Part shown: piece after piece, positions 19,158 to 20,391 of the stretch | Numbering within the stretch: position 1 is the first letter of the stretch | How the letters are laid out: the number at the start of each line of letters is the position of its first letter | Origin: a virus | Lineage: Duplodnaviria; Heunggongvirae; Uroviricota; Caudoviricetes | Length of the DNA: 24,800 nucleotides | Virus record (IMG/VR): IMGVR_UViG_2872192773_000009 | Direction: 5' to 3' (one strand) | The notes under the pieces: generated by a model | The model's database searches: none | Told to the model about the DNA's origin: nothing | Seen by the model: the letters and a program-made list of their open reading frames with translations, nothing else | Program-made: the position numbers and the translations under genes

Positions 19158-19416
19158 AGCCTGCTTCTCCTTGCCTTTCGGCACGTAAGAGGCTAACCTA
19201 CATGTGTTCAGCATGGATTGAGCCTCAGATTAATGTTAAGCGTCTTGCAGGACGCGTAATGTTAACTGGGGCTTTTCTCTATCTGCCTTTTGGTGTTCAT
19301 GCCTGAGACAGATAGCCTCAAGCACCCGCAGTCATTCTACTTAACTAAGATTTCCCTGCAAACCGTTTTTGTCCGGCACAGTAAATATCCAACTAAACCA
19401 ATAGCGTTCGCTGTAT

Positions 19417-19596
19417 TTACCGCCAGTATTCAATGCACATGACCGCCATGAACACCCCTAAAAAAAGGGCATTTATATGTCCAAACATTAATATCAAAAC
19501 ATCAATTTTTTCCATATACCTTGCTGTGAAGATGATGGGCATACATGATGCGAACAACCAGAACGCAACAAACAAAAACTGCAATGCGTTTTTCAT
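19417..19596 (-). CDS. Predicted small two-transmembrane membrane protein (59 aa), uncharacterised
   Basis: From the internal ATG: MKNALQFLFVAFWLFASCMPIIFTARYMEKIDVLILMFGHINALFLGVFMAVMCIEYWR. GGGGGA ribosome-binding site 5 nt upstream; two hydrophobic helices; AT-rich. No family recognised. Confidence 0.35.
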   Translation of the reverse strand: MKNALQFLFVAFWLFASCMPIIFTARYMEKIDVLILMFGHINALFLGVFMAVMCIEYWR

Positions 19597-19808
19597 TATT
19601 CCCCCTACAATCAATGTGCAATAACATTTAAACACACCTCAATTTGGCCGGACATATAAATATCTAAACCAGAAAAAATCACTTACATAGCGTTACAAAC
19701 TCTTTAGTCTAAATACTCATCGTAAAACATTCCCCATACTTATCAGTCCGTTCCGCGCCAGGTAGCTTATTGCCTTATCTGGCAACCTATAATCAGGTTT
19801 CCGCTTTT

Positions 19809-20231
19809 TCAGTTGGCTGGTCGTTTAACCGACATAGTTAACCCATTAATCTGGTTGCCGGATGCTGGTGGATTTTCGCGTTTTAATTGTTCATAAAAGT
19901 GCACAGCTTTAACCAGTTCTTCTGATGTAACCGGGACTGGTGGGGCAGTGAATAAGGCCTGAATTTCATAGTTCGGCCTGTCGTTACAATCCTCTTTTTT
20001 CGGTACATATTTCCAGTCACCAACCCACAACTCCCCCTGAGAGTCCATAACACCTTTTTTCACGTAGCGATATCGCCACGCTATCGGCTCTGCTTCCAGC
20101 GATGCCCGTGCAATTTTGAATAACTCGCCCTCTACTCGCGCCATCCCTGAATTGGGGTGGCATTTCGTAATCGCTATTTTTAATTTGGCTTCTTCGATTA
20201 ATTGTTCTTTTGTTAATTCAGTCATTTTCAT
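19809..20231 (-). CDS. Hypothetical protein (140 aa), divergent from int; uncharacterised
   Basis: MKMTELTKEQLIEEAKLKIAITKCHPNSGMARVEGELFKIARASLEAEPIAWRYRYVKKG... AT-rich. No recognisable motif. Not excisionase-like in size or sequence. Confidence 0.45.
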   Translation of the reverse strand: MKMTELTKEQLIEEAKLKIAITKCHPNSGMARVEGELFKIARASLEAEPIAWRYRYVKKGVMDSQGELWVGDWKYVPKKEDCNDRPNYEIQALFTAPPVPVTSEELVKAVHFYEQLKRENPPASGNQINGLTMSVKRPAN

Positions 20232-20391
20232 TACCGCCCTGGTAATGCTGCCACCAGCGAAAATGGTTAATGGAAAACGGGCTTCCGTTCTATACCAATC
20301 GTAGTGGCAAACCGATTGTCAGCCGGGATCTATTTACCTGCAATAAAACTTTACCACCACGCGAGGTAGAGCCGAATTTTGGTGCGATCTG

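What the first reader, a model, noticed from the sequence alone, without database searches (positions are those of the whole stretch)
19215..20391. AT-rich two-ORF cassette between int and hok, where Qin-type prophages carry relBE
The segment hokD, rem-like, ydfU-like, Q matches the Qin prophage gene order, but the relB-relE pair that precedes hokD in K-12 is absent. In its place is about 1 kb of AT-rich DNA encoding a 140-aa protein with no recognisable motif (19809-20231) and a 59-aa two-transmembrane peptide with a strong ribosome-binding site (19417-19596), both co-oriented with hok. A soluble protein paired with a tiny membrane protein beside an integrase is the typical layout of prophage-encoded superinfection-exclusion, abortive-infection or toxin modules. 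I cannot place either ORF in a known family from sequence, so the function is a hypothesis, not a call.
Basis: partly seen in the sequence, partly recalled or inferred. Interest (0 to 1): 0.65.

Follow-up and report, generated by a model that had tools for sequence, protein, structure and literature searches.

The report
Prophage leftovers upstream of hok/sok
The "cassette" is the tail end of a lambdoid prophage's early region, joined to the integrase gene by a large deletion. It holds a broken copy of a common phage accessory gene, a probably genuine but uncharacterised 59-residue membrane-protein gene, and the control region of a hok/sok toxin-antitoxin locus, so it is ordinary prophage content rather than a recognisable defence module.

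Summary
Both ORFs, the AT-richness, the strong ribosome-binding site and the absence of relBE are real. The interpretation mostly fails.

- **Position next to int.** Window 19215-20240 lies in intact E. coli prophages between the replication/Ead-like genes and hok-DUF968-rusA-Q (the nin region). Here a deletion (junction 20241-20249) fused it to a 5'-truncated xis-like DUF4224 gene and int.
- **hok/sok.** 19152-19327 is the hok/mok/sok leader (Rfam 118.9 bits), with a promoter-like site at 19334-19362.
- **140-aa ORF.** It is a decayed allele of a mosaic accessory family of unknown function (PHROG 660). It has a 90-nt internal deletion and a 4-nt frameshift, and a fossil C-terminus runs on to 19717. 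More than half of the sampled copies are frameshifted.
- **59-codon ORF.**
  - It occurs in about 28% of complete E. coli genomes.
  - Its length is not beyond chance, and close copies show 8 nonsynonymous to 1 synonymous changes.
  - A diverged copy in Escherichia sp. TA280 keeps the start, stop, SD and length without gaps (dN/dS 0.34; third-position excess P=0.004).
  - It is probably a real two-helix membrane protein, always upstream of the hok leader.

No hit to any defence, toxin or solved-structure library. Interest is low.

The parts
19002..19157 (-). hok toxin CDS (51 aa). It lies just outside the finding, but it is the gene that the leader inside the finding controls.
   Evidence: Pfam HOK_GEF, E=3e-23. 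98.5% identical to K-12 hokD over window 18908-19171.
19152..19327 (-). hok mRNA leader, containing the in-frame mok-like start (ATG at 19214) and the antisense sok region
   Evidence: Rfam RF01794, full-length match 1-157/157, 118.9 bits against a gathering score of 59, E=9e-28. 94% identical to the TA280 copy.
19334..19362 (-). hok promoter-like site, TTTGCA-17-TAGAAT, 7 nt upstream of the leader's first base
   Evidence: The only sigma-70-like site found in 18900-20500 on either strand. The TAGAAT hexamer is conserved in TA280.
19417..19596 (-). Small ORF of 59 aa, predicted to form a two-helix membrane hairpin. It may start at the GTG at 19635, giving 72 aa.
   Evidence: ORF; hydropathy. 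The block is in 1548 of 5426 E. coli genomes. The TA280 orthologue has the same start, stop and length without gaps, dN/dS 0.34, and 16 of 28 differences at third positions (P=0.004). There is no indel or stop in 162 close copies. The exact sequence is on at least 1000 public contigs and is named 'membrane protein'.
19597..19635 (-). Conserved 39 nt upstream of the ATG, carrying the SD AGGGGGA (19600-19606). It is also the possible 13-codon N-terminal extension.
   Evidence: 85% identical and gap-free against TA280, whereas the next 61 nt upstream are 59% identical. The SD is AGGAGGA in some copies.
19717..19808 (-). Fossil 3' end of the ancestral, longer PHROG 660 gene. It is out of frame with the 140-aa ORF and reads ...PDKAISYLARNGLISMGNVLR*.
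   Evidence: Protein alignment with the 171-208 aa relatives. DNA alignment with the intact L027-type gene. tblastn shows the frame change.
19809..20231 (-). 140-aa ORF (138 aa from the ATG at 20225). It is a truncated allele of a mosaic lambdoid accessory protein of unknown function.
   Evidence: PHROG 660, E=6e-47, matching positions 1-133 of 193. 90-nt in-frame deletion between ENPP and DNPP repeats plus a 4-nt deletion that shifts the frame. No Pfam, NCBIfam, PADLOC or PDB match.
20241..20249 (.). Deletion (novel-joint) junction between nin-region DNA and the xis-int end of the prophage
   Evidence: Homology to intact prophages ends at 20240 on the nin side and starts at 20250 on the int side.
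20250..20391 (+). 3' remnant of a DUF4224 (xis-like) gene; the first 61 nt are lost
   Evidence: Pfam DUF4224, E=7e-7, profile positions 19-43 of 45. The intact 204-nt gene sits upstream of the same int at the same tRNA-Ser site in E. coli 4/4.
20392..21432 (+). Tyrosine integrase of the prophage remnant
   Evidence: Pfam Phage_integrase and Phage_int_M.
21460..21549 (-). tRNA-Ser(cga), at the end of the prophage remnant, next to mtfA
   Evidence: ARAGORN. Same arrangement in E. coli 4/4.

Best explanation
The segment is not a dedicated two-gene module. It is the distal end of the delayed-early (nin) region of a lambdoid prophage. In this Shigella-type ipaH island, a deletion removed everything from the 5' end of xis to the gene upstream of the 140-aa ORF, and so joined the segment to xis'-int.

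**Components, in the direction of transcription**
1. A decayed allele of a mosaic accessory gene of unknown function (PHROG 660). It has lost half of its most conserved C-terminal module and all of its tail.
2. A 59-codon (possibly 72-codon) gene with its own strong Shine-Dalgarno sequence, encoding a two-helix inner-membrane hairpin.
3. The promoter and leader of a complete hok/mok/sok type I toxin-antitoxin locus.

**How it most likely works (inferred)**
- In intact relatives, components 1 and 2 are transcribed as passengers of the early rightward operon that runs from the replication genes to Q.
- The small protein would then be made during lytic growth and act at the inner membrane as an accessory factor. 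Its target is unknown.
- In this window the early promoters are deleted and no promoter-like site precedes either ORF. Both are therefore probably silent hitch-hikers.
- Only hok/sok, which has its own promoters, is autonomous. It can act as an addiction or lysis-assisting module for the remnant.

**Shown:** the anatomy, the deletion junction, the decay of the 140-aa gene, the linkage of the small ORF to the hok leader, and the substitution pattern.

**Inferred:** transcription, membrane insertion and any function.
For: **Context**
- The same block lies between Ead/Ea22-like, DUF4406, DUF977 and replication genes on one side and hokD, DUF968, rusA and Q on the other in intact prophages.
- The junction is at 20241-20249, with a truncated DUF4224 gene beside it.

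**140-aa gene**
- The deletion and frameshift were mapped at the DNA level.
- Of 91 tallied copies (window included), 35 keep the C-terminal frame. 55 are frameshifted there, in about nine HSP patterns that point to at least five different lesions. One matches only residues 1-127.
- PGAP marks it as a pseudogene in three genomes.
- The family is large and modular: 3927 hits and 440 representatives. Its modules sit beside Ead_Ea22 or DUF551 domains in other proteins.
- There is no informative structural match.

**Small ORF**
- A gap-free island of 84-85% identity covers 19417-19635, against 59% and 73% in the flanks.
- dN/dS is 0.34, with a third-position excess at P=0.004.
- The SD and ATG are conserved in both lineages.
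- Replacements are more conservative in the sense frame (mean BLOSUM62 +0.29) than in the antisense frame (-0.57).
- 162 close copies carry no indel or stop.
- The hok promoter region follows the small ORF in all 90 sampled loci. The hok leader follows it within 1.5 kb in 85 of them.

**Promoters:** no promoter-like site occurs upstream of either ORF on either strand.
Against: - The truncated 138/140-aa allele is itself widespread, on at least 999 and 548 public contigs. That could mean it is retained, although clonal spread in Shigella flexneri explains it as well.
- Among close copies the small ORF shows 8 nonsynonymous and 1 synonymous change, so there is no sign of recent constraint.
- One antisense frame is open in both lineages and has an equally low dN/dS (0.27). 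The strand that codes is therefore inferred from the SD and the nature of the replacements, not proven.
- Only one diverged lineage (TA280, L093/L094) was found.
- The promoter scan is a crude consensus search, and no expression data were available.
- In five RefSeq contexts inspected, PGAP does not annotate the small ORF.
Confidence: 0.75

Rival explanations
1. The 140-aa soluble protein and the small membrane protein form a functional two-gene superinfection-exclusion, abortive-infection or toxin module, placed beside int as a lysogeny-expressed moron.
For: - The two ORFs are co-oriented and AT-rich.
- A PHROG 660-type gene lies upstream of the small ORF in about 86 of 90 sampled loci.
- Neither ORF has a known function.
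Against: - Adjacency to int is a deletion artefact.
- The upstream gene is truncated here and frameshifted in more than half of the copies, while the small ORF stays intact.
- Its N-terminal and middle modules vary freely between loci.
- No promoter-like or terminator-like site sets the pair apart as a moron.
- There is no PADLOC hit.
Confidence: 0.06
2. The small ORF is not a gene. It is a chance open frame in T-rich, AT-rich DNA, and the conserved island reflects an RNA or regulatory element, or the antisense ORF.
For: - ORFs this long arise in 30-40% of shuffles.
- T-rich DNA gives hydrophobic codons.
- Close copies show 8 nonsynonymous to 1 synonymous changes.
- The antisense frame is open in both lineages with dN/dS 0.27, and phage records annotate that strand.
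- PGAP omits the ORF in the RefSeq records inspected.
- No homologue occurs outside Escherichia and Shigella.
- Frameshifted versions at the T7 run exist in public protein sets.
Against: - The start, stop, length and SD are kept exactly across a divergence of dS about 0.39, while the flanks pick up indels and fall to 59-73% identity.
- Third-position excess at P=0.004.
- The hydrophobic pattern is kept by conservative replacements.
- The antisense ORF has no SD, and its first ATG is lost in TA280.
- No Rfam match at E<=1 falls in 19328-19808.
Confidence: 0.25
3. The small membrane protein is functionally tied to hok/sok. It could be a second membrane-active toxin, a modulator of Hok insertion, or part of a hok-assisted lysis function.
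For: - It is followed by the hok leader in 85 of 90 sampled loci and in both diverged lineages.
- Both products are small inner-membrane proteins.
- A prophage hok/sok locus assists phage release (PMC8621323).
Against: - Matches that include the hok leader occur in 4568 genomes, against 1958 with the small-ORF block. The plasmid and chromosomal hok loci that have been studied work without such a gene (established knowledge of R1 hok/sok).
- The linkage may only reflect a shared recombination module.
- There is no sequence similarity to Hok.
Confidence: 0.08

Closest known systems
hok/mok/sok type I toxin-antitoxin loci (plasmid R1 hok/sok; prophage hokW-sokW of Sakai Sp5, PMC8621323)
   Same: - Window 19002-19362 has the Hok CDS and an in-frame Mok-like extension.
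- It has a full-length leader/sok match and an upstream promoter-like site.
- Like hokW, it lies in a lambdoid prophage.
   Different: Only the leader and promoter (19152-19362) fall inside the finding. The two ORFs of the finding are not part of the hok/sok unit as it is known.
relBE-hokD (relBEF) of the K-12 Qin prophage
   Same: - The hok CDS is 98.5% identical.
- The downstream order (DUF968/ydfU-like, then Q) is the same.
   Different: - K-12 homology stops 14 nt upstream of the hok ATG (window 19171). In K-12, relBE replaces the hok leader.
- The window has no relB, relE or rem.
- Qin-like prophages with intact early regions carry the window's block as well as relBE.
Ead/Ea22-like and DUF551 mosaic accessory proteins of lambdoid early regions (lambda Ea22: PMC7093339, PMC10834534)
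   Same: - The 140-aa protein shares the modular build: a helical N-terminal part followed by exchangeable modules.
- Its modules occur fused to Ead_Ea22 or DUF551 domains in other proteins.
- A BFVD fold hit includes an Ead/Ea22-like protein (E=3e-4, low TM-score).
   Different: - The protein does not match Pfam Ead_Ea22.
- It shows no fold match to any PDB entry.
- It lies in the nin region rather than the exo-xis region.
- No function is known for PHROG 660.
Small phage-encoded inner-membrane proteins that block superinfection or act on membrane proteins (for example T4 Imm, Qin DicB/YdfD; from general knowledge and PMC6832061)
   Same: Small size, a predicted membrane location, and being encoded by a prophage.
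   Different: No sequence similarity was detected to any family in Pfam, PHROGs, NCBIfam or PADLOC. No phenotype is known. The resemblance is one of size and hydrophobicity only.

Membership tests
Hok/Gef toxin with hok/sok regulatory RNA | Hok/Gef domain in the CDS | tested here: met
   PF01848, E=3e-23, 81.6 bits against a cut-off of 22, for 19002-19157.
Hok/Gef toxin with hok/sok regulatory RNA | Conserved structured leader that carries the sok target and the mok start | tested here: met
   RF01794, full length, 118.9 bits against a gathering score of 59, at 19152-19327. In-frame Mok-like start at 19214.
Hok/Gef toxin with hok/sok regulatory RNA | Sok RNA is expressed and represses hok | not testable with these tools
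   Needs Northern blotting or RNA-seq, plus toxicity assays.
RelBE type II toxin-antitoxin | RelB and RelE homologues are present | tested here: not met
   tblastn of K-12 RelB and RelE against the window gives only noise (E>=2).
PHROG 660 (lambdoid accessory protein, unknown function) | Significant full-length match to the family profile | tested here: inconclusive
   E=6e-47, but only profile positions 1-133 of 193 are matched. The C-terminal third is lost to a deletion and a frameshift. This is a member by descent, but a truncated one.
Ead/Ea22-like (PF13935) | Match to the Pfam Ead_Ea22 domain | tested here: not met
   No Pfam family at E<=1 for the 140-aa protein. The domain occurs only in other proteins that share its C-terminal module.
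Known anti-phage defence systems (PADLOC-DB) | Match of either ORF to a defence-protein model | tested here: not met
   No family for either ORF at E<=1.
Superinfection-exclusion or abortive-infection membrane proteins | Expression from the prophage in the lysogen, and protection against infecting phage | not testable with these tools
   No promoter-like site lies upstream. The phenotype needs plaque assays.
Type I toxin (small hydrophobic protein with an antisense RNA) | Small hydrophobic toxin ORF with an overlapping or adjacent antisense RNA gene | tested here: inconclusive
   The hydrophobic 59-aa ORF is present. No promoter-like site occurs on the opposite strand and no Rfam match in 19328-19808. 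Toxicity was not tested.
Protein-coding gene (small ORF) | Purifying selection in the reading frame, and preserved ORF boundaries in diverged copies | tested here: met
   Against TA280: dN/dS 0.34, 16 of 28 differences at third positions (P=0.004), and the same start, stop and SD without gaps. Caveats: there is one lineage pair only, one antisense frame scores alike, and close copies show 8 nonsynonymous to 1 synonymous changes.

The most novel reading that the evidence does not exclude
The 59-residue two-helix membrane protein is a functional, conserved prophage accessory factor that most RefSeq annotations miss. It is carried by about 28% of E. coli genomes and almost always sits directly upstream of a hok/sok locus. 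It would act at the inner membrane either with Hok (lysis assistance or addiction) or as an exclusion factor against other phages.
Probability: 0.12. Interest if true: 0.5.

Novelty: new member of a known kind. Interest (0 to 1): 0.2.

Why it matters
The practical value is corrective.
- A layout that looks like a defence or toxin cassette beside an integrase can be produced by a deletion in a decaying prophage. The way to expose this is to compare with intact relatives.
- The work shows that K-12's relBE-hokD differs from the complete hok/sok arrangement only upstream of position -14 of hok.
- It flags a widespread small membrane-protein gene that five inspected RefSeq annotations omit and that some phage records annotate on the wrong strand. 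If that protein has a role in lysis, addiction or exclusion, it would be relevant to many E. coli and Shigella prophages. Nothing here shows such a role.

Tried and rejected
**Profile libraries**
- Pfam, NCBIfam and PADLOC gave nothing for either ORF.
- PHROGs gave nothing for the small ORF and only unknown-function families for the 140-aa ORF.

**Structure**
- The PDB sequence search gave only noise.
- AlphaFold2 of the window protein gave pLDDT 56, too low to use.
- The 148-aa relative gave pLDDT 70. Foldseek found no PDB match at E<=0.001. BFVD returned only uncharacterised phage proteins and one Ead/Ea22-like protein, at low TM-scores. Weak Tad1 hits (E about 0.5, TM 0.23) were rejected as noise.

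**Searches for relatives**
- The exhaustive profile search showed a modular family but gave no function.
- A third protein search with a diverse profile returned mostly the same close relatives.
- Distant blastn of the small-ORF block against phages and plasmids found no diverged copies.
- Metagenome and IMG/VR scans seeded with the TA280 variant found no third lineage.
- Literature searches on peptide strings found nothing.

**Statistics and RNA**
- ORF length does not separate the small ORF from chance.
- dN/dS does not separate the sense frame from one antisense frame.
- Rfam at E<=1 found nothing in 19328-19808.

**Ideas considered and dropped**
- The block as a moron with its own promoter and terminator: no such sites.
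- The 140-aa protein as an excisionase or regulator: no support.
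Full report
**1. What is in the sequence**

ORF listing confirms a 140-aa ORF at 19809-20231 (-). It also confirms a small ORF at 19417-19596 (-, 59 aa from ATG), which can be extended in frame to a GTG at 19635 (72 aa). hok lies at 19002-19157 (-), with an in-frame Mok-like extension to 19214. A tyrosine integrase lies at 20392-21432 (+). It is followed by tRNA-Ser(cga) at 21460-21549 (-) and by mtfA.

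GC falls to 0.35-0.40 over about 19300-19900. The small ORF is preceded by AGGGGGA (19600-19606), 4 nt before its ATG. It has two hydrophobic stretches with Kyte-Doolittle means near 2.1. No RelB, RelE or Rem homologue is encoded anywhere in the window. The descriptive part of the finding therefore holds.

**2. What the ends of the interval really are**

The left end belongs to hok/sok. Rfam places a full-length hok/sok leader at 19152-19327 on the hok strand, at 118.9 bits against a gathering score of 59. The only sigma-70-like site in 18900-20500 is TTTGCA-17-TAGAAT at 19334-19362, directly upstream of that leader. So the left 150 nt of the 'cassette' are the control region of a complete hok/mok/sok locus.

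The right end belongs to a broken xis-like gene. 20250-20391 encodes the C-terminal part of a DUF4224 protein (E=7e-7). In E. coli 4/4 the intact 204-nt DUF4224 gene lies between an exonuclease gene and the same int, at the same tRNA-Ser/mtfA site. The window's homology starts 61 nt inside that gene.

**3. Native context**

The stretch 19215-20240 is 98-99.9% identical to a block in intact lambdoid prophages, for example E. coli FDAARGOS_944 and ATCC 43886. There it lies between Ead/Ea22-like, DUF4406, DUF977 and replication genes on one side and hokD, a PHROG 1212 gene, DUF968, rusA and Q on the other. This is the nin region, far from int.

Homology stops at 20240 on that side and resumes at 20250 on the int side. 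A deletion therefore removed the 5' end of xis, the recombination genes, the immunity region and the replication genes. Two IMG/VR contigs and S. flexneri SFBU1023 share the same junction. The rest of the window carries an ipaH-type NEL E3 ligase gene, several IS elements and tail genes. All of this fits a decayed Shigella ipaH island. 'Beside an integrase' is thus an accident of decay.

**4. Relation to relBE and Qin**

K-12 Qin has the order Q, ydfU, rem, hokD, relE, relB. Its homology to the window around hok covers 18908-19171 only and stops 14 nt upstream of the hok ATG. In K-12, relBE therefore replaces the hok leader.

Qin-like elements that still have their early region carry the window's block up to and including the hok leader. 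Examples are E. coli S51 and phage PhiR42_1. In them the block is followed by an IS, flxA, ydfV, relBE and hokD. The block is therefore not an alternative to relBE.

The ORF next to hok (18556-18834) is a PHROG 1212 gene. Its K-12 counterpart is unannotated DNA between ydfU and rem. Rem itself is absent.

**5. The 140-aa ORF**

It has no Pfam, NCBIfam, PADLOC or PDB sequence match. It does match PHROG 660, a family of unknown function, at E=6e-47, but only over profile positions 1-133 of 193.

Relatives are 148-208 aa long. DNA alignment with an intact 171-aa allele shows two lesions in the window:
- a 90-nt in-frame deletion between short direct repeats (ENPP...DNPP);
- a 4-nt deletion that shifts the frame and ends the ORF at 19809.

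A recognisable but decayed C-terminal coding remnant continues to the old stop at 19717-19719.

The 91 copies tallied (window included) divide as follows:
- 35 keep the C-terminal frame;
- 55 are frameshifted there, in about nine HSP patterns that indicate at least five different lesions;
- one matches only residues 1-127.

PGAP marks the gene as a pseudogene in three of the five RefSeq contexts inspected.

The wider family is large and modular, with 440 representatives at E<=0.001 and 3927 hits to a profile. It has an exchangeable N-terminal helical part, a variable middle and a conserved C-terminal module. The window's copy has lost half of that C-terminal module. Other proteins combine these modules with Ead_Ea22 or DUF551 domains.

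Structure prediction reached pLDDT 56 for the window protein and 70 for a 148-aa relative. Fold searches gave no PDB match and only uncharacterised or Ead/Ea22-like phage proteins, at low TM-scores. This is a degraded copy of an ordinary lambdoid accessory gene of unknown function.

**6. The small ORF**

*Evidence against a gene*
- An ATG-ORF of at least 59 codons occurs in 30% of dinucleotide-preserving shuffles of the region.
- The coding strand is T-rich, which favours hydrophobic codons.
- There is no homologue outside Escherichia and Shigella and no family match.
- PGAP leaves it unannotated in five RefSeq records, and phage records annotate the opposite strand.
- In 162 close copies there are 9 segregating sites: 8 nonsynonymous and 1 synonymous.

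*Evidence for a gene*
- The block 19330-19808 is present at 95-99% identity in 1548 of 5426 complete E. coli genomes.
- A diverged copy exists in Escherichia sp. TA280. It has the same ATG, the same stop, 59 codons, an equivalent SD and no gaps.
- Identity to that copy is 84-85% over exactly 19417-19635. It falls to 59% upstream and 73% downstream, where indels appear.
- Of the 28 differences, 16 are at third codon positions (P=0.004), and dN/dS is 0.34.

*The strand ambiguity*

One antisense frame shares the wobble positions. It is open in both lineages and has dN/dS 0.27, so the substitution pattern alone does not fix the strand. Three observations favour the sense frame:
- the antisense ORF has no SD;
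- it loses its first ATG in TA280;
- its replacements are less conservative (mean BLOSUM62 -0.57, against +0.29 for the sense frame).

*Other points*
- No indel or stop occurs in the 162 close copies, despite a T7 run. Frameshifted versions do exist in public protein sets and may be sequencing errors.
- The excess of nonsynonymous polymorphism among near-identical copies is what is usually seen at very short divergence, or in cryptic prophages under relaxed selection.

I put the probability that this is a real gene for a two-helix membrane protein at about 0.7. The exact sequence is already in public databases on at least 1000 contigs, named 'membrane protein' or 'hypothetical protein'.

**7. 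Linkage**

- The hok promoter region follows the small ORF in all 90 sampled loci. The hok leader follows it within 1.5 kb in 85 of them, and also in TA280.
- A PHROG 660-type gene lies upstream in about 86 of 90 loci. Its N-terminal module varies, and it is often broken.
- In TA280 the upstream gene keeps only an N-terminal module and the conserved tail '...KPDCKLPGKAMDYLKRNGLISVEDVLR'.
- The stable unit is therefore tail module, small ORF, hok/sok. It is not a fixed protein pair.
- Matches that include the hok leader occur in 4568 genomes, against 1958 with the small-ORF block. hok/sok therefore does not need the small ORF.

**8. Mechanism**

What is shown is the anatomy and the history described above. 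The rest is inferred, as follows.
- In intact phages the two ORFs are passengers of the early rightward operon. The small protein is translated from its own SD and inserts into the inner membrane. Its role is unknown.
- In this remnant the early promoters are gone, and no promoter-like site precedes either ORF. Both are therefore probably silent.
- hok/sok is self-contained. [quoted passage not shown]

However, it has lost its supporting arguments.

**9. Verdict**

The region is ordinary decayed prophage content. Its one modestly interesting element is a widespread, under-annotated small membrane-protein gene upstream of hok/sok.

Noticed in passing
window 1311-2954 (+): A 547-aa ORF has LRR repeats and a C-terminal NEL E3-ligase domain (E=6e-77), which makes it an IpaH-type effector. 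With S. flexneri SFBU1023 99.8% identical over 6.2 kb, the window is a Shigella ipaH prophage island at tRNA-Ser/mtfA.
   Followed up: partly
window 3654-4688 (-), 10682-11500 (-), 13442-15335 (-): Two IS3-family (rve) transposase ORFs and an IS66-family element interrupt the prophage remnant.
   Followed up: no
window 5909-7858 (-), 8634-10130 (-): A tape-measure gene and a contractile tail-sheath gene (myovirus type) lie in the same remnant as lambdoid Q, rusA and DUF968 genes. The element is a chimera or a lambdoid-early/myovirus-late phage.
   Followed up: no
window 15942-16251 (-): A cluster of four tRNA genes (Gly-tcc, Thr-tgt, Lys-ttt, and a 'Met'-cat) lies downstream of Q. PGAP calls the CAT-anticodon tRNA tRNA-Ile in the homologous E. 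coli locus.
   Followed up: no
K-12 Rem has no match in the window. The K-12 counterpart of this ORF is unannotated DNA between ydfU and rem.
   Followed up: yes
window 18912-18993 (-): A weak Rfam isrK match (27 bits, gathering score 50, E=0.004) overlaps the hok 3' end and an intrinsic-terminator-like hairpin at 18916-18933. It is probably chance or distant relatedness of prophage 3' regions.
   Followed up: no
window 19171/19172; L092 (K-12 Qin): K-12 hokD homology ends 14 nt upstream of the hok start. The relBE-hokD operon is thus a hok CDS that has lost its mok/sok leader at a sharp breakpoint. PhiR42_1 shows the same breakpoint.
   Followed up: partly
window 19433-19624 (+); L004 4946-5197, L005 4946-5203: Phage GenBank records annotate the ORF antisense to the small ORF, in one case as 'hornerin'. 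This is probably a wrong-strand call.
   Followed up: partly
L090 (strain ECMA0423, CP178302.1), equivalent to window 19190-20090: This genome has the same int junction and identical flanks. About 98 mismatches and about 46 gap columns are confined to the 900 nt that cover the cassette and hok leader, and they break both ORFs. This is unexplained. It could be a consensus error in a multi-copy region, a recombination patch, or real decay.
   Followed up: partly
L093 4215-4480 (Escherichia sp. TA280 scaffold GL884358.1): The small ORF region is duplicated on both sides of a run of N, which is a scaffolding artefact. The second copy gives the complete ORF.
   Followed up: yes
window 19461-19467: A T7 run inside the small ORF coincides with the point where frameshifted protein versions in public sets diverge (for example P0141, P0145 and P0146...ALFFRGVHGGHVH). 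None of the 162 fetched DNA copies has an indel there.
   Followed up: partly
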